Below are positions 11,414-16,506 of a DNA stretch of 64,000 nt, one piece after another. The position numbers were made by a program, and so were the translations under genes. This DNA comes from Escherichia coli (GTDB lineage: Bacteria; Pseudomonadota; Gammaproteobacteria; Enterobacterales; Enterobacteriaceae), in the NCBI RefSeq assembly GCF_009931435.1, contig NZ_CP043414.1. One strand, given 5' to 3'. The stretch's first letter is position 1; the number at the start of each line of letters is the position of its first letter. The notes below the pieces were generated by a model, which made no database searches, was not told where the DNA came from, and worked only from the letters and a program-made list of their open reading frames with translations.

Positions 11414-12064
11414 TTAATTTGATTTATTTGCATCCATCAACGCTTTTAACTGCTCCGGCGAAAACGGTGGTTTGCGTCGGTGCAACATCGCATGGCAATT
11501 AGGGCACACAGGAAGCAAATCATTAACTGGATCCAGCTGGTAATTCTCTTTAATGGCTGAAAGCGGCACCAGGTGATGCACATGGATAAAGCCTTCAGCG
11601 ATATCACCATAGATCTTCACCAGATCAACGCCGCATACGTTGCACTGGCATCCATGATGTTCGACCGCTTTATCTCGGGCCTTTTTATCGCGTTCATAGC
11701 GGTTTACTGTCACCTTTATCGCCGCACCTTCAACGTATGTCTCCTGCGACGGCAACTCATCCGGGAACAGAACGTCGGCTATGGGAGCCGCAGCGGCTTT
11801 ATCCTGATGAATATGAAATCCCTGCTCTATGAGTAGTTTGACGCATTTAGATTTTATTCCGCCGGTGAAATCCGCAGGGGTAAATTGCGTCCCCGTCATC
11901 AATGTCGCTGCGATGCCAGCAATCGCCTTCGAGGGGTAACGTCGGCCATGATATTCAATCTCATACAACCGCGCAGGCTGGAACTGATGAGTTTCTCCCG
12001 CATCCCATAAATGGATAGCTTCGATGATATACCGCCGCGGAAGATGATCAGGGAGTTTATTCAT
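11414..12064 (-). CDS. HNH endonuclease with about 140-aa N-terminal domain of unknown function
   Basis: C-terminal HHGCQCNVCG...HVHHLVPLS...NDLLPVCPNCHAMLH (zinc-finger HNH); N-terminal region has no motif I recognise. Confidence 0.7.
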   Translation of the reverse strand: MNKLPDHLPRRYIIEAIHLWDAGETHQFQPARLYEIEYHGRRYPSKAIAGIAATLMTGTQFTPADFTGGIKSKCVKLLIEQGFHIHQDKAAAAPIADVLFPDELPSQETYVEGAAIKVTVNRYERDKKARDKAVEHHGCQCNVCGVDLVKIYGDIAEGFIHVHHLVPLSAIKENYQLDPVNDLLPVCPNCHAMLHRRKPPFSPEQLKALMDANKSN

Positions 12065-12143
12065 GGAGAATGTCCTTATACGTTCTCAGAACAGGCAGCA
12101 AAAAAACAAATGAGATCAAGGTAATATATCTTCACTTGCAGGC

Positions 12144-13073
12144 TTGAACAGCAGAAAATTTGCGAGCATGATCGCAATTATTTCACTGCCAGGGATATCA
12201 ATGGCTTCCAGTAAATCGCTACAGCAGGCAATTGCCAATATAAAAATCTGGCACAAGGGTGAACAGCGCGCGCCGCATAAGCCATTGTTATTGCTATACG
12301 TATTAGCGGGATACCTGAATGGACATCCGCGCCTTTTCGATTATGGCTCGGAAATCTACGAACCTCTGCACAGTTTACTGGAACGTTTTGGGCCACAGCG
12401 TTCACAGTACCGACCTGATATGCCGTTCTGGCGATTACAAGGCGACGGATTCTGGCAATTACACAATGCCGAACTTTGCTCAACAGCAGGGAGTAGCCGA
12501 CAACCGCCAGTGAAGGAACTGACCGAACACCGCGTTGCAGGCGGTTTCGATGAACAGCACTATGCCCTGGTAATCGGCAATAAAAAACTCATCAATACCC
12601 TGGCGCAACAGATACTCGAAGCGCACTTCACCGAGAGCATTCAGGAAGAAATTGCTGACGAGCTGGGTTTTGATCTCCAGCAAATCCGTAAACAGCGCGA
12701 CCCGTTATTTCGCAAACTTGTATTGCGCGCATATAACTACCAGTGCGCGATATGTGGCTTTAATATGCGCCACGATGACACCACCGTCGCACTGGAAGCA
12801 GCGCATATAAAATGGAAACAGCACGGCGGTCCTTGTGAAATTCCTAATGGCCTGGCGCTTTGTGCAATACACCATAAAGCCTTTGATAAAGGATCGATTG
12901 GCCTGGATGAAAATATGCGGGTACTGGTCTCGGATGCGGTAAACGGCGGAGGGATCGTTGAGAAACTATTCTGGGATTTTGACGGGAAAACTATTGCGTT
13001 ACCACAGGTGCGTAAAAATTACCCTTTTGAGGGGTTTGTGGAGTGGCATCGAAAAGAGGTTTTTAGGGGGTGA
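12144..13073 (+). CDS. HNH endonuclease with about 190-aa N-terminal domain of unknown function (start may be a downstream Met, e.g. 12201)
   Basis: HNH signature CAICGF...AAHIKWKQHGGP...NGLALCAIHHKAFDKG; divergent from the 216-aa HNH gene across a 79-bp spacer. Confidence 0.7.
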   Translation: MNSRKFASMIAIISLPGISMASSKSLQQAIANIKIWHKGEQRAPHKPLLLLYVLAGYLNGHPRLFDYGSEIYEPLHSLLERFGPQRSQYRPDMPFWRLQGDGFWQLHNAELCSTAGSSRQPPVKELTEHRVAGGFDEQHYALVIGNKKLINTLAQQILEAHFTESIQEEIADELGFDLQQIRKQRDPLFRKLVLRAYNYQCAICGFNMRHDDTTVALEAAHIKWKQHGGPCEIPNGLALCAIHHKAFDKGSIGLDENMRVLVSDAVNGGGIVEKLFWDFDGKTIALPQVRKNYPFEGFVEWHRKEVFRG

Positions 13074-13114: not shown

Positions 13115-13297
13115 TCAGTGCAGGATCTTGCCGCTAGTTTACAACTCGCCTTCGATAGCGGCGCAAAACGAGTTCTGTTGCCGATATCCTCGGCTATGGA
13201 TATTCCAACAGTTCCGGCAGAGTTGTTTACCAAGTTTCAGGTAAGTTTTTACTCAGAACCGGTTGATGCGGTTTATAAGGCGCTGGATGTGAATTAA
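13115..13297 (+). pseudogene. C-terminal remnant of a Lon-like protease gene (possibly BrxL-like), no start codon
   Basis: Open frame with no Met translates to SVQDLAASLQLAFDSGAKRVLLPISSAMDIPTVPAELFTKFQVSFYSEPVDAVYKALDVN, resembling the extreme C-terminus of Lon-family proteases (compare Lon AAHRGGIKTVLIPFENKRDLEEIP...). Confidence 0.4.
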
Positions 13298-13628: not shown

Positions 13629-13672
13629 AGTTATTCACTGATTATATTATCAATAATATAATCAGTGAATAA
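13629..13672 (-). terminator. Perfect 20-bp inverted repeat immediately downstream of the 682-aa gene, followed on the minus strand by a T-run; likely intrinsic terminator
   Basis: gttattcactgattatatta / tcaa / taatataatcagtgaataac; minus-strand downstream sequence ctctaatttttttaatg. Confidence 0.5.
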
Positions 13673-13695
13673 CATGGACTATATAATAAATTGCT

Positions 13696-15744
13696 CTAAT
13701 CATTTCCCTTACGAATATATGGGCCAAAAGCCCAAGAATCATAATAAGGGTGATGGACTAATTTTTCATTAAATCGAACACTATAAGTTAATTTTTTTAT
13801 ATTTTTACGTACAGCATTAATACTGGGCAAAGAGGAAAGATAATCTATAAACTTATCGATAGTGATTTTCCCTTCGCAACACTCAAACCCATCAATGATA
13901 TTTTTCGCCATTTTTCCATTTTCATTTGTTTGATATATCACTCCAGGTATTCGTTGAAAAAAACTAGATAATGCATATTTGTCCGCTACATATGTATCAT
14001 CCACATGATATTTCCCACCGAGCATAGTTGTAGTAACAATAAGCTTATACACACCTTTGGGTTGCCATGTTGATGGTAGTTCGAATTCTTTAATGATCAC
14101 ATCAAGATGATTAAGATAATGTTCAGAAATTCGATTTATTTGTTGAAAATAAGAACGCATAAATTTATTATTATGATCATGTATTAATGAGCTATCTCCA
14201 ACGATGTTACACACTTGCTGATAGTACTTACCATAATATATTGGTTGACCATTTGATTTTAGTTCTGTAAAAATCAAACAATCATCCAGGAGAATCACGC
14301 AATCGCACTGATAATTAGCATGAGCATCAATTGGAGAAGCTTTAATCCCCGCATCACGAACTTGTTTTATAAATTGTTGCTCATGAAATCGCCCTTTACT
14401 TGCTTGAGAAATTTTTTTGGAACCAAATAATGACATTAGAGAGCGAGTCACTGAGCTATTTGCTATTAATGCAGGCATTAAGCATAAACCGTCCATACAG
14501 GGAATAAATGGGCAATCATTAAGATCATGTGATTTTGAATTGAAGGTAAAATAATCTATCAGTTTTTTTGCTGCATCTGCTGCAATCCCCTTACGTTGAA
14601 AGAATGATAACCAACTCTCACGGCTTTTTATGACCAGCCAGCGATCCAACTGTAGGGGTATAGGTTTTGTCGATGAAAATCTTTTGCTCATTTCTTCTTT
14701 AGATAACTCGACTAAACATTGATAAGCGTGCACCCAATTAAATAATGATATATTCCCATATTCTTCATGAAGGTCATCAGGAGACATATTTTCCAACTCG
14801 CTTAAATGAAATGAGCTAAAAACGCCATCAGAATTTAAGTAAGATGGCATATGATCCTTTACCCAACTATTTAGATGAAAATGTTTGTTACTAAATTCAT
14901 GAACTTCGCTATATAGATGTGACGCTCTCATCATTAGTCTATTTCTTGCAATCTCATAATCTCGGTATAAACAAAAACTATCAACCTCAAGAGAGTAAAT
15001 GTTATTATCCAATTTTGTAAATACTGCACTACTTAGTCTGAAAAAGTCTCTTACTCTGCTTAATGAGTCAAAAACATTCCACTCATTAAGGTACCCTCCC
15101 ATTGAAAGCAAGGTTTGTTTATTCACACAAGAAGTTAGTTTCAATGGCCCATGAGTCCGTAAATAAGAAAATATTCTTCCGGTGTAATTGGCTACCTCAT
15201 CAAATGCCCTATCGATAACTCGAAAATATTCGATATCAGGTTCAGCATGAATATTAATATTTTCAGAAACGATAAATAATGGAAAAATCCTCTTCATTTT
15301 TTTAGGATCATTGACCACAACCAAGGATGATAATGATGATAAAAACATCTCACAAAACATGATGAGATTAAGTATTAATGCATGTGATTTTTTTGTATTT
15401 TTACGCCAAATACCAGCACATTTTGCAGCCCCAAAGAAAGAATTATTTATATCATGCATAATTTTACATTGACTCTCGAACTCAGAGATTAGTTCAATGT
15501 TATCAGGAAATGAGTTTACTAGCTCATTAATACATTTTTTGAATGTATTGTTATACTCAACTTCAGTCTGAACTGAAAATCTATTATAATAGATGGAAGA
15601 TATTCTCAGCACATCCAAGGCGATATCTATACTAATATCATCTCTTTTTATGTACTCACAAAAAAAAGAACAAAACTGTTTCGGGTCGTTAGCAAGATTA
15701 CTAATTCTAGTGGTATCATAAACTTTTTCCATTTTTCCATACAT
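13696..15744 (-). CDS. Hypothetical 682-aa protein, very AT-rich, no confident domain assignment
   Basis: Single long ORF flanked by more than 600 bp of AT-rich non-coding DNA on each side; possible PD-(D/E)xK-like motif CDCVILLDDCLIFTELK in the C-terminal third (weak). Confidence 0.6.
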   Translation of the reverse strand: MYGKMEKVYDTTRISNLANDPKQFCSFFCEYIKRDDISIDIALDVLRISSIYYNRFSVQTEVEYNNTFKKCINELVNSFPDNIELISEFESQCKIMHDINNSFFGAAKCAGIWRKNTKKSHALILNLIMFCEMFLSSLSSLVVVNDPKKMKRIFPLFIVSENINIHAEPDIEYFRVIDRAFDEVANYTGRIFSYLRTHGPLKLTSCVNKQTLLSMGGYLNEWNVFDSLSRVRDFFRLSSAVFTKLDNNIYSLEVDSFCLYRDYEIARNRLMMRASHLYSEVHEFSNKHFHLNSWVKDHMPSYLNSDGVFSSFHLSELENMSPDDLHEEYGNISLFNWVHAYQCLVELSKEEMSKRFSSTKPIPLQLDRWLVIKSRESWLSFFQRKGIAADAAKKLIDYFTFNSKSHDLNDCPFIPCMDGLCLMPALIANSSVTRSLMSLFGSKKISQASKGRFHEQQFIKQVRDAGIKASPIDAHANYQCDCVILLDDCLIFTELKSNGQPIYYGKYYQQVCNIVGDSSLIHDHNNKFMRSYFQQINRISEHYLNHLDVIIKEFELPSTWQPKGVYKLIVTTTMLGGKYHVDDTYVADKYALSSFFQRIPGVIYQTNENGKMAKNIIDGFECCEGKITIDKFIDYLSSLPSINAVRKNIKKLTYSVRFNEKLVHHPYYDSWAFGPYIRKGND

Positions 15745-16421
15745 CCTATTGTCTAAATTACTATAAAATTAGCCACTTAACTAATAATTATAAATTTCAT
15801 CTTTTGCACCTTGCATTTTTATAACCAATGAAATCTACAACAAGCAACTGATGGATAATCCGATATTGGTCGCATTTAATGGCATGGTAGCAAAGTTTTC
15901 ATCACATACCTCCTTTGCACCAGAATAAACGCCAGAGACCTGAAATTGCGAGTACACTACAGAAATTGTACTGCCGGTCCCATCAGCATAAAACCATAGT
16001 TACACAGGTAATCATCATTATTCACCAAGATAATAAATATTATTCGGTAGAATAGCGTTCTCAGGTGGTCAGTAAAATTGTCTTCAACAAGATGTCTGCG
16101 CATCTCGTCTGCTAGCCCTACATAACTGCTCTCGACCGAAACTATTTATTGAATGTTCACCAAGGTGGGCGTGGAGACAAAATGACGTCTTTTGATATTA
16201 GCTACCTGAGCCACATGGTCAAAACGTTCAAGTAGCATAGCGAAACCACCCTGCCCACGTAATGTGGACGATGCAGCTTCCAGCCAGAGCAAACTTGGGA
16301 CCATCGACTACCAAATGAAGAATACTGAACTGCTTTTCTGGCAGGCCTATATACTGCACGGATATGGGTGATTTCAGACACAAAAAAAGCCGCTCTTGAG
16401 CGACTCGATTTGCATACGGTG

Positions 16422-16506
16422 TGGTGCCGAAGGCCGGACTCGAACCGGCACGTATTTCTACGGTTGATTTTGAATCAACTGCGTCTACCGATTTCGCCAC
16501 TTCGGC
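16422..16506 (-). tRNA. leuX: tRNA-Leu (anticodon CAA), leuX
   Basis: Minus-strand sequence GCCGAAGTGGCGAAATCGGTAGACGCAGTTGATTCAAAATCAACCGTAGAAATACGTGCCGGTTCGAGTCCGGCCTTCGGCACCA, with T-loop GGTTCGAGTCC and 3' CCA; matches recalled leuX. Confidence 0.9.

What the first reader, a model, noticed from the sequence alone, without database searches (positions are those of the whole stretch)
13696..15744. Orphan, very AT-rich 682-aa ORF flanked by long non-coding spacers
A single large gene with no recognisable catalytic domain sits between the HNH pair and leuX, with over 600 bp of AT-rich non-coding DNA on each side and a strong hairpin downstream. Its composition and location in a defence island suggest a horizontally acquired single-gene system. 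A weak PD-(D/E)xK-like pattern (LLDD...ELK) in the C-terminal third is the only hint of function.
Basis: partly seen in the sequence, partly recalled or inferred. Interest (0 to 1): 0.65.

Follow-up and report, generated by a model that had tools for sequence, protein, structure and literature searches.

The report
Stand-alone nuclease, probable phage-defence gene
The AT-rich orphan gene next to the leuX tRNA in this E. coli window encodes a real, conserved 678/682-residue protein with an intact restriction-enzyme-type (PD-(D/E)xK, NERD-like) nuclease domain behind a large unknown helical domain; it is most likely a single-gene anti-phage nuclease, already flagged by a published machine-learning screen but never tested.

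Summary
The ORF is real. It lies at 13696-15744 on the minus strand, has 32.8% GC against 48% for the window, and is followed by a terminator hairpin. It sits between two HNH restriction-type genes and leuX in an E. coli chromosome, and 332 of 5426 complete genomes carry it.

The family is rare but widespread: 360 clusters at 50% identity, in Firmicutes, Proteobacteria and Planctomycetes. It has no conserved partner gene. It usually sits in mobile or defence contexts: a Tn7 cargo with Gabija, type I R-M with a Cap4 nuclease, Abi genes, prophage ends, and the edge of a conjugative element in Salmonella. dN/dS against Salmonella is 0.11.

DefensePredictor (Science 2026) lists this protein as a "predicted novel defense gene" (log-odds 9.73). 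I found no record of a test.

Verdict: a probable stand-alone defence nuclease, a new variant of a known kind, of moderate interest.

The parts
13696..15744 (-). ORF of 682 codons (probable true start at 15732, giving 678 aa; ~79 kDa). It is annotated 'hypothetical protein' in RefSeq (for example WP_001589581.1 and WP_000416998.1) and auto-named 'NERD domain-containing protein' in UniProt.
   Evidence: The alignment with homologues at 41-75% identity runs end to end. dN/dS against the Salmonella orthologue is 0.106.
14530..15744 (-). N-terminal domain, residues 1-405: all-helical, compact and the least conserved part. It is inferred to be a sensor or regulatory domain.
13951..14529 (-). PD-(D/E)xK (NERD-like) nuclease region, residues 406-598. 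It includes the conserved lead-in motif D407-x-x-D410-x-P412 and the alpha-beta-beta-beta-alpha-beta core.
14257..14382 (-). Predicted catalytic residues: E455 (14380-14382), D481 (14302-14304), E494 (14263-14265), K496 (14257-14259).
   Evidence: Coordinates were checked by translation. The layout E...D...ExK matches the tetrad mutated in the NERD defence nuclease ZwsA (E535/D567/E580/K582; bioRxiv 10.64898/2026.04.06.716636).
13699..13950 (-). C-terminal subdomain, residues 599-682: two beta hairpins and two helices, with the family motif 'Y-E-G-x-I-T-x-x-K-L-L-x-F-L-x-x-P-P-Q-I'. Its role is unknown.
13630..13673 (-). Intrinsic-terminator-like hairpin: a 20-bp perfect stem and a 4-nt loop, followed by a U-run.
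15660..15667 (-). T8 run (A8 on the plus strand) in codons ~26-29. The APEC O1 allele has 7 bases, so it is frameshifted and annotated as 587 aa.
13118..13297 (+). Relic of brxL (the last 59 codons of the BREX Lon-like protease). It shows earlier turnover of defence genes at this site.
   Evidence: TIGR02653, E 3.8e-24, profile positions 617-675 of 675. RefSeq annotates it as an incomplete 'peptidase'.
11414..13073 (.). Divergent pair of HNH nuclease genes (216 aa on the minus strand; 309/290 aa on the plus strand, the latter 'phosphorothioated DNA-binding restriction endonuclease'). These are context, not part of the ORF's unit.
   Evidence: PADLOC mREase_IV and HNH models.
16422..16506 (-). 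tRNA-Leu(CAA), leuX, anchor of the hotspot. In other strains homology to the window resumes at 16445, 24 nt inside the leuX 3' end, next to an integrated P4-like satellite.

Best explanation
The gene encodes a stand-alone, horizontally mobile immune nuclease.

**Shown**
- It is a real protein under purifying selection.
- Its C-terminal half is a PD-(D/E)xK (NERD-like, restriction-endonuclease-fold) domain with a complete and invariant metal-binding and catalytic set: E455, D481, E494 and K496.
- It has no conserved partner gene.
- It and its relatives sit in defence and mobile-element hotspots.

**Inferred**
- The ~400-residue helical N-terminal domain packs tightly on the nuclease and evolves faster than it. 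I infer that it holds the nuclease inactive or confers specificity.
- A phage-derived cue (a protein or a nucleic-acid structure) releases or recruits the nuclease.
- The nuclease then cuts nucleic acid in a Mg2+-dependent way and stops phage replication, either directly or by killing the infected cell.
- DNA is the more likely substrate, because the closest folds are DNA nucleases. RNA is not excluded.
- The AT-rich gene and promoter region are probably kept at low expression in E. coli.
For: **A real gene**
- The ORF cannot be chance.
- dN/dS is 0.106 against the 75%-identical Salmonella orthologue.
- Full-length homologues form 360 clusters at 50% identity, 47 of them at E <= 1e-30.

**A nuclease**
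- D481, E494 and K496 are invariant and E455 is 97% conserved across 110 sequences at 15-25% identity.
- Pfam NERD is hit by 11 of 110 members, with weak Card1_endonuc and Mrr_cat hits.
- The profile aligns the GxxFE...D...ExK motifs with the Can2 nuclease.
- The AF2 model has pLDDT 93.5 and pTM 0.92, with alpha-beta-beta-beta-alpha-beta topology at residues 450-571.

**A single-gene module**
- No neighbour is shared among the contexts.

**Defence or mobile context**
- E. coli: leuX hotspot #37, with two type IV-like HNH genes and a brxL relic.
- Salmonella: the edge of an integrative conjugative element, near an AbiJ-domain gene.
- A Tn7-like cargo directly after Gabija GajA/GajB.
- Next to a type I R-M system and a Cap4 nuclease.
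- Among AbiU2, Abi_C and DUF3800 genes.
- An integrase element with KAP NTPase, Mrr and PIN genes.
- Prophage ends, one of them beside a pPIWI_RE gene.
- An integrase island in Pectobacterium.
- Plasmids of Bacillus, Priestia and Exiguobacterium.

**Independent prediction**
- The DefensePredictor table lists WP_000416998.1, this gene as annotated in strain ETEC6335, whose locus is 99.3% identical in DNA to the window. Its mean log-odds is 9.73 against a cutoff of 4, its label is 'Predicted novel defense gene', and its HHpred hit is UpxA at probability 99.1 over 39% of the protein.

**Precedents for the design**
- Upx is a single-protein PD-(D/E)xK defence with auto-inhibition relieved by a phage protein (PMC13099982).
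- ZwsA is a stand-alone NERD endonuclease.
Against: - No experiment shows nuclease activity or phage protection for any member of this family.
- The query itself does not reach any Pfam, NCBIfam, PADLOC or PHROG family threshold.
- One context (Izhakiella) is a solo gene between housekeeping clusters.
- About half of comparable DefensePredictor candidates failed validation in E. coli; the overall validation rate was 45%.
- Auto-inhibition by the N-terminal domain, the trigger and the substrate are all inference.
- Within E. coli the few differences seen are mostly non-synonymous (7 non-synonymous, 1 synonymous), and one lineage (APEC O1) carries a frameshift. The gene may therefore be dispensable or decaying in some strains.
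Confidence: 0.6

Rival explanations
1. It is a constitutively active restriction endonuclease of the modification-dependent (type IV-like) or otherwise self-sparing kind. The N-terminal helical domain reads a DNA modification or sequence, and the PD-(D/E)xK domain cuts incoming DNA. No phage trigger is needed.
For: - No methyltransferase lies beside the gene in E. coli.
- Both neighbours are type IV-like HNH enzymes, one annotated as recognising phosphorothioated DNA.
- A few family members have weak Mrr_cat hits.
Against: - It is all-helical and large, and it resembles generic helical bundles only.
- Several family members sit next to complete R-M systems rather than replacing them.
Confidence: 0.15
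2. It serves mobile elements rather than the host. It is a nuclease used in competition or exclusion between mobile elements, or an addiction-type toxin, carried as cargo by conjugative elements, transposons, prophages and plasmids.
For: Homologues occur at the edge of a conjugative element, in a Tn7-like element, at prophage ends, in integrase islands and on plasmids.
Against: - These are also the standard locations of bona fide defence cargo.
- In E. coli the gene is fixed at a chromosomal site with no integrase or transfer genes.
- It lies outside the P4-like satellite that integrates at leuX in some strains.
- No adjacent antitoxin-like small gene is conserved.
- No homologue was found in 50,697 phage genomes.
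Confidence: 0.1
3. In this E. coli lineage it is a silent or decaying relic. The protein family is functional elsewhere, but here the gene is an unexpressed, xenogeneically silenced remnant of an old leuX island, like the brxL fragment beside it.
For: - The gene and the promoter-proximal spacer are very AT-rich, and no strong sigma-70 promoter match lies upstream.
- The flanking brxL relic shows that decay happens at this locus.
- The APEC O1 allele is frameshifted at a T8 run.
- Another strain has a 223-bp internal duplication.
- There are 7 non-synonymous differences and 1 synonymous difference between two E. coli alleles.
Against: - The reading frame is intact in the window and in five of the six alleles compared at the T8 run; in the protein collection most E. 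coli entries are full-length 678/682-aa forms, and one 90%-identity cluster alone holds 3303 sequences.
- All catalytic residues are intact.
- A clean terminator follows the gene.
- Long-term dN/dS is 0.11.
- Silence under laboratory conditions would not exclude function.
Confidence: 0.1
4. It is a housekeeping DNA repair or recombination nuclease, or a surface or metabolic protein, that merely happens to lie near leuX.
Against: - Only 332 of 5426 complete E. coli genomes carry the gene, and its distribution across phyla is patchy.
- Its composition is foreign to the genome.
- There is no signal peptide or membrane-spanning pattern. A single hydrophobic helix lies inside a confidently folded globular domain.
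- No metabolic domain was found.
Confidence: 0.03

Closest known systems
Upx (Gao_Upx, UpxA): single-protein PD-(D/E)xK anti-phage system (Gao et al. 2020; structure 9wuf, PMC13099982)
   Same: - Both are single-gene modules.
- Both have a C-terminal PD-(D/E)xK nuclease with an ExK motif essential for defence in Upx (E1176/K1178).
- The DefensePredictor table reports HHpred probability 99.1 to UpxA over 39% of this protein.
- In Upx, non-catalytic domains regulate the nuclease and a phage protein relieves the inhibition.
   Different: - Upx has ~1270 residues (construct numbering; the deposited chain is 1212) with three domains, including a second, atypical N-terminal nuclease.
- This protein has 678/682 residues and an all-helical N-terminal domain with no nuclease core.
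- No PADLOC family other than a weak PDC-M29B match reaches E <= 1, and the family profile does not reach Upx in the PDB at E <= 10.
- Similarity is limited to the nuclease region.
ZwsA (Zowangsin), Pseudomonas aeruginosa stand-alone NERD-domain RNA endonuclease against ssRNA phages (bioRxiv 10.64898/2026.04.06.716636)
   Same: - Both are stand-alone multidomain effectors of similar size (~80 kDa).
- Both have a helical N-terminal part, then a NERD-type site with the same E...D...E-x-K tetrad. The D-to-E spacing is 13 residues in both.
- Both are found in genomic islands and defence hotspots.
   Different: - ZwsA is described with VHS, DUF647 and S4 RNA-binding domains. None of these is detected here by Pfam, either in the query or in 110 relatives.
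- The C-terminal subdomain shows no S4-like or any other fold match.
- The catalytic site sits ~85 residues further from the N-terminus in ZwsA.
Shedu (SduA, DUF4263) and other single-gene PD-(D/E)xK defences
   Different: There is no DUF4263 or PADLOC Shedu match. The similarity is at superfamily level only.
DS-26 ('NERD', WP_054626965.1), an E. coli single-gene system validated in the DefensePredictor study (PMC13092281)
   Same: It is an E. coli accessory single gene with a helical N-terminal part and a D...DxK nuclease motif. The same table reports a remote HHpred link to UpxA.
   Different: It has 532 aa. Profile comparison of this family with the first 399 residues of DS-26 found no relationship (hhalign probability 0.3).
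Pfam NERD (PF08378) nuclease-related domain
   Same: The motif layout is the same (G-x-x-x-E helix, D in beta-2, ExK in beta-3). 11 of 110 family members match at E <= 1e-3. UniProt auto-names the family 'NERD domain-containing protein'.
   Different: The E. coli protein itself gives no NERD hit at E <= 10. hhalign against one bona fide NERD protein aligns only the D...ExK strands, at low probability.

Membership tests
PD-(D/E)xK (restriction-endonuclease-like) superfamily | Alpha-beta-beta-beta-alpha-beta core fold | tested here: met
PD-(D/E)xK (restriction-endonuclease-like) superfamily | Conserved D...(D/E)xK catalytic motif on strands 2 and 3 | tested here: met
   D481, E494 and K496 are invariant and E455 is 97% conserved in 110 homologues.
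PD-(D/E)xK (restriction-endonuclease-like) superfamily | Metal-dependent nuclease activity | not testable with these tools
   This needs purified protein and DNA or RNA substrates.
Pfam NERD (PF08378) | Match to the family HMM | tested here: inconclusive
   The query gives no hit at E <= 10. 11 of 110 relatives hit at E <= 1e-3, and 25 at E <= 0.1. hhalign against one NERD protein aligns only the catalytic strands.
Upx (Gao_Upx) | Full-length match to the system's protein model | tested here: not met
   The PADLOC scan returns only a weak PDC-M29B hit (E 0.0014) and no Upx model. The PDB profile search does not return 9wuf.
Upx (Gao_Upx) | Three-domain, dual-nuclease architecture of ~1200-1270 aa | tested here: not met
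   The protein has 682 aa, and its N-terminal domain is all-helical with no second beta-sheet core. The architecture of Upx is taken from PMC13099982.
Upx (Gao_Upx) | Homologous C-terminal nuclease domain | tested here: met
ZwsA / Zowangsin | NERD catalytic tetrad E, D, E-x-K | tested here: met
   E455/D481/E494/K496 here, against E535/D567/E580/K582 in ZwsA.
ZwsA / Zowangsin | C-terminal S4 RNA-binding domain; VHS and DUF647 regions | tested here: not met
ZwsA / Zowangsin | Sequence homology to ZwsA | not testable with these tools
   The preprint gives no sequence or accession. None of the proteins held has E/D/E/K at ZwsA's positions.
Shedu (SduA) | DUF4263 nuclease domain | tested here: not met
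Anti-phage defence system (functional class) | Located with defence genes or mobile elements across relatives | tested here: met
   8 of 11 contexts have known defence genes within ~10 kb, and 9 of 11 have mobile-element hallmarks. There is no formal enrichment statistic.
Anti-phage defence system (functional class) | Protection against phage on expression | not testable with these tools
   There is only a machine-learning prediction, log-odds 9.73. The five E. coli accessions I could search for do not appear in the tables of tested units.

The most novel reading that the evidence does not exclude
This protein founds an uncharacterised, phylum-spanning family of stand-alone immune nucleases. 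Its ~400-residue helical domain has no structural relative in the PDB and acts as a new kind of direct sensor of a phage component. A conserved acidic D-x-x-D-x-P element links that sensor to the nuclease and gates it. If so, it is a new single-gene defence system with a new sensing domain, sitting in the busiest E. coli defence hotspot.
Probability: 0.4. Interest if true: 0.6.

Novelty: new variant of a known kind. Interest (0 to 1): 0.42.

Why it matters
If expression protects against phage, this adds one more single-protein nuclease system to the E. coli immune repertoire, with relatives in Bacillus, Listeria, Streptococcus, Legionella and Agrobacterium. It would also give a compact 79-kDa model for asking how a non-catalytic helical domain senses infection and unleashes a restriction-type nuclease.

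It would turn a table-only machine-learning prediction into a defined target. The catalytic residues to mutate (E455, D481, E494, K496) and the domain boundaries are given here.

The locus also records defence-gene turnover at leuX: a BREX relic, type IV-like HNH enzymes and the P4 attachment site lie within 5 kb.

It would not overturn current ideas, because nucleases with variable sensor domains are a well-known design.

Tried and rejected
1. **Paralogue of the nearby AT-rich YjgL-like ORF (35665-37410).** BLASTP found no similarity.
3. **Direct family assignment.** Pfam, NCBIfam, PHROGs, PADLOC and PDB sequence searches with the single protein gave nothing significant.
4. **A second word-indexed protein search with the 110-sequence alignment.** It returned only the same close relatives and added nothing.
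5. **Identity with ZwsA.** No protein held has the published catalytic positions, and no sequence is available.
6. **Relationship to the validated DS-26 'NERD' system.** hhalign found none.
7. **A conserved partner gene (two-gene system).** All-against-all BLASTP of the neighbours from eight contexts gave no hits.
8. **A leuX 3'-end direct repeat marking a far island boundary.** None occurs in the window.
9. **Conserved upstream regulatory element or leader peptide.** The E. coli and Salmonella upstream regions do not align.
10. **A phage-encoded origin.** No homologue was found in the phage genome collection. The four IMG/VR 'viral' contigs are P4-like satellites plus flanking host DNA, and the ORF lies outside the satellite.
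Full report
**1.

The window is an E. coli chromosome segment. The order of features is fim, nanCMS, two HNH genes, the ORF, leuX, ahr, yjgR and so on.

The ORF runs from 15744 down to 13696 on the minus strand, 682 codons. At 32.8% GC, a stop-free run of that length has a chance probability of about 9e-24. Third codon positions are 25.8% GC. The window is 48% GC and the neighbouring core genes are about 53%.

RefSeq starts the protein at the fifth codon, giving 678 aa. All diverged homologues begin at the equivalent residue, so 15732 is the likelier start.

A perfect 20-bp hairpin followed by a U-run lies 22 nt after the stop codon (13630-13673; -26.5 kcal/mol, z = -4.9).

The two flanking 'spacers' are 622 and 677 bp long, as reported, but they are not empty:
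- The downstream spacer contains the last 59 codons of the BREX gene brxL (13118-13297; E 3.8e-24).
- The upstream spacer contains the leuX terminator (16387-16406). Only its ORF-proximal half is AT-rich.

**2. It is a real gene with a narrow close family and a wide distant one**

332 of 5426 complete E. coli genomes carry the ORF together with both flanks, always at this site.

Close relatives are few:
- Salmonella, 75% identity.
- Single entries from Izhakiella, Xenorhabdus, Pectobacterium and Pantoea, 41-56% identity.

Against the Salmonella orthologue dN is 0.153 and dS is 1.44, so dN/dS is 0.106. That is clear purifying selection.

A profile search of 1.84 billion representative proteins found 360 clusters at E <= 1e-3 and 47 at E <= 1e-30. 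Most are full-length proteins of 600-700 aa.

Foldseek against AFDB50 shows the whole architecture conserved, with TM-scores of 0.67-0.97. The organisms include Bacillus, Paenibacillus, Listeria, Streptococcus, Enterococcus, Legionella, Agrobacterium, Rhizobium, Paracidovorax and a planctomycete. All are auto-named 'NERD domain-containing protein'.

**3. What the protein is**

The single sequence hits nothing significant in Pfam, NCBIfam, PHROGs, PADLOC or the PDB.

The family tells a different story. In an alignment of 110 full-length homologues, mostly at 15-25% identity:
- The only invariant residues are P412, G451, D481, E494 and K496.
- D407, D410, E455, Q535, R538 and D588 are at least 90% conserved.

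The pattern E455 ... D481 ... E494-x-K496 is the classic PD-(D/E)xK set. Further support:
- Eleven of the 110 members hit Pfam NERD at E <= 1e-3, with weak Card1_endonuc and Mrr_cat hits in others.
- The family profile aligns its 'KGxxFE ... ECD ... ExK' block with the nuclease motifs of Can2.

AlphaFold2 with this alignment gives a very confident model, pLDDT 93.5 and pTM 0.92. It divides into three parts:
- Residues 1-~400 are all-helical.
- Residues ~406-598 form an alpha/beta domain with the alpha-beta-beta-beta-alpha-beta order expected of the fold.
- Residues ~599-670 form a small beta-hairpin/two-helix/beta-hairpin unit.

The catalytic aspartate, however, is D481 in 'QCDCVI', not 'LLDD'.

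**4. Context**

No neighbour is shared between the contexts I could read, so the gene is a self-contained unit. The contexts are:

| Organism or protein | Context |
|---|---|
| E. coli (this window) | two HNH genes matching type IV restriction models, plus a BREX relic, at leuX |
| Salmonella | edge of an integrative conjugative element (coupling protein, TraC, lytic transglycosylase), with an AbiJ-domain gene and a YjhX toxin gene within ~5 kb on the chromosomal side |
| P0093 | Tn7-like transposon cargo, directly after Gabija GajA/GajB and before a WYL regulator |
| P0092 | beside a type I R-M operon and a Cap4 nuclease |
| P0105 | among AbiU2, Abi_C and DUF3800 genes |
| P0094 | integrase element with KAP NTPase, Mrr and PIN genes |
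| P0099 | prophage end, next to a pPIWI_RE Argonaute-like gene |
| P0100 | prophage end, among transposases |
| Pectobacterium | integrase island |
| Izhakiella | solo insertion between housekeeping clusters |
| P0096 | short contig of unknown genes |

Other points on distribution:
- A few homologues are on Bacillus, Priestia and Exiguobacterium plasmids.
- None is in the phage genome collection.
- leuX is 'hotspot #37', described as the most occupied of 41 E. coli defence islands, with BREX and phosphorothioate-related systems among its usual contents (PMC12707154).

Four IMG/VR 'viral' contigs carry a 98-99% identical copy of the ORF. The one I examined (L022) is a P4-like satellite, with psu, delta and alpha primase genes, integrated in leuX; all four diverge from the window at the same point. 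Their homology to the window resumes 24 nt inside the 3' end of leuX, so the ORF lies just outside the satellite.

**5. What is already known**

I found no paper that names or tests this protein.

The supplementary tables of DefensePredictor (Science 2026, PMC13092281) list WP_000416998.1. This is the 678-aa product of the same gene in other E. coli strains. The entry gives:
- mean log-odds 9.73, against the paper's stringent cutoff of 4;
- category 'Predicted novel defense gene';
- an HHpred link to Upx (UpxA) at probability 99.1 over 39% of the protein.

None of the five E. coli accessions I could search for occurs in the tables of cloned and validated units. The study's overall validation rate was 45%.

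That study did validate a different E. coli single-gene 'NERD' system, DS-26 (532 aa). Its first 399 residues show no profile-level relationship to this family.

Two characterised systems have the same design:
- Upx is a single ~140-kDa protein. Its C-terminal PD-(D/E)xK core is needed for defence, and its activity is auto-inhibited until a phage protein relieves it (PMC13099982).
- ZwsA is a stand-alone NERD endonuclease of P. aeruginosa that cuts ssRNA phage genomes. Its catalytic residues are E535, D567, E580 and K582 (bioRxiv 10.64898/2026.04.06.716636).

This protein shares only the nuclease domain with Upx. It lacks the S4, VHS and DUF647 features reported for ZwsA. Sequence homology to ZwsA could not be tested.

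**6. Most likely mechanism**

Shown:
- An intact, conserved restriction-type active site.
- A single-gene unit.
- A mobile and defence-island lifestyle.
- Purifying selection.

Inferred:
- The large helical domain is the least conserved part: column conservation is 0.22-0.35, against 0.38-0.46 for most of the nuclease region. It is predicted to pack tightly against the nuclease (pTM 0.92). I infer that it senses a phage cue or keeps the nuclease in check.
- On infection the enzyme cuts nucleic acid in a metal-dependent way.
- DNA is the more probable substrate, because the closest folds are DNA enzymes. The ZwsA precedent keeps RNA open.

I put about 0.9 on 'active-site-competent PD-(D/E)xK nuclease', about 0.6 on 'defence system', and about 0.35 on the specific model of auto-inhibition followed by triggered DNA cleavage.

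The rivals are:
- a constitutive type IV-like restriction enzyme;
- a weapon or addiction module serving mobile elements;
- a silenced relic in this lineage;
- a housekeeping role, which I consider unlikely.

**7. Unexplained points**

- The nearly invariant D407-x-x-D410-x-P412 element sits just before the nuclease core. Its role is unknown.
- The C-terminal subdomain has no structural relative.
- The excess of non-synonymous differences between two E. coli alleles (7 against 1) rests on too few sites to interpret.

**8. Verdict**

It is probably a single-gene defence system. It has been predicted computationally in the literature but not tested. It is a new variant of a well-known design, and interest is moderate.

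Noticed in passing
window 13118-13297 (+): The last 59 codons of brxL (the BREX Lon-like protease) survive as a pseudogene fragment between the HNH gene and the ORF. A BREX system was probably once here and was deleted or replaced.
   Followed up: partly
window 15660-15667; L017 (APEC O1) 2656-2662: A T8 run lies in codons ~26-29 of the ORF (A8 on the plus strand). APEC O1 has 7 bases, which frameshifts the gene, and RefSeq then calls a 587-aa product. Five other alleles checked have 8.
   Followed up: partly
L021-L024; window 16422-16445: Four IMG/VR 'viral' contigs carry a 98-99% identical copy of the ORF. The one examined (L022) carries P4-like satellite genes (psu, delta, alpha primase). 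Homology to the window starts 24 nt inside the leuX 3' end, so this is probably the attachment core, and the ORF lies just outside the satellite.
   Followed up: partly
L024 7301-12690 (window 15051-15273): One strain has a 223-bp tandem duplication inside the ORF. That length is not a multiple of three, so it probably disrupts the reading frame.
   Followed up: no
window 11414-12064 (-) and 12144-13073 (+): Two divergently transcribed HNH nuclease genes lie here. One is annotated as a phosphorothioated-DNA-binding restriction endonuclease. No dnd or other phosphorothioate modification genes are annotated between nanS and leuX, so it looks like a solitary type IV-like enzyme aimed at phosphorothioate-modified invaders.
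   Followed up: partly
window 15875-15901 (-): An eight-codon mini-ORF (MKTLLPCH) with a strong Shine-Dalgarno sequence (AAGGAGG) lies ~130 nt upstream of the ORF. It is not conserved in the Salmonella upstream region, so it is probably chance.
   Followed up: partly
window 35665-37410 (-): This is a second large AT-rich orphan ORF (581 aa) between argF/argI and tabA, at the position of yjgL in E. coli K-12. It is unrelated to the ORF studied here (BLASTP E > 1).
   Followed up: partly
L016 1-3645: In one Salmonella conjugative-element variant a 267-aa NERD (PF08378) gene overlaps a 1399-aa helicase-like gene (UvrD/AAA_11/AAA_12, with a faint kinase hit). The pair lies a few kb from the orthologue and may be another defence pair.
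   Followed up: no
one search hits P0130, P0131, P0166, P0180, P0183, P0201, P0207, P0138, P0154, P0173: Some representatives contain only the nuclease half (about 220-320 aa) or only the N-terminal half (about 300-420 aa). They may be split or stand-alone versions, or just fragments from contig ends.
   Followed up: no
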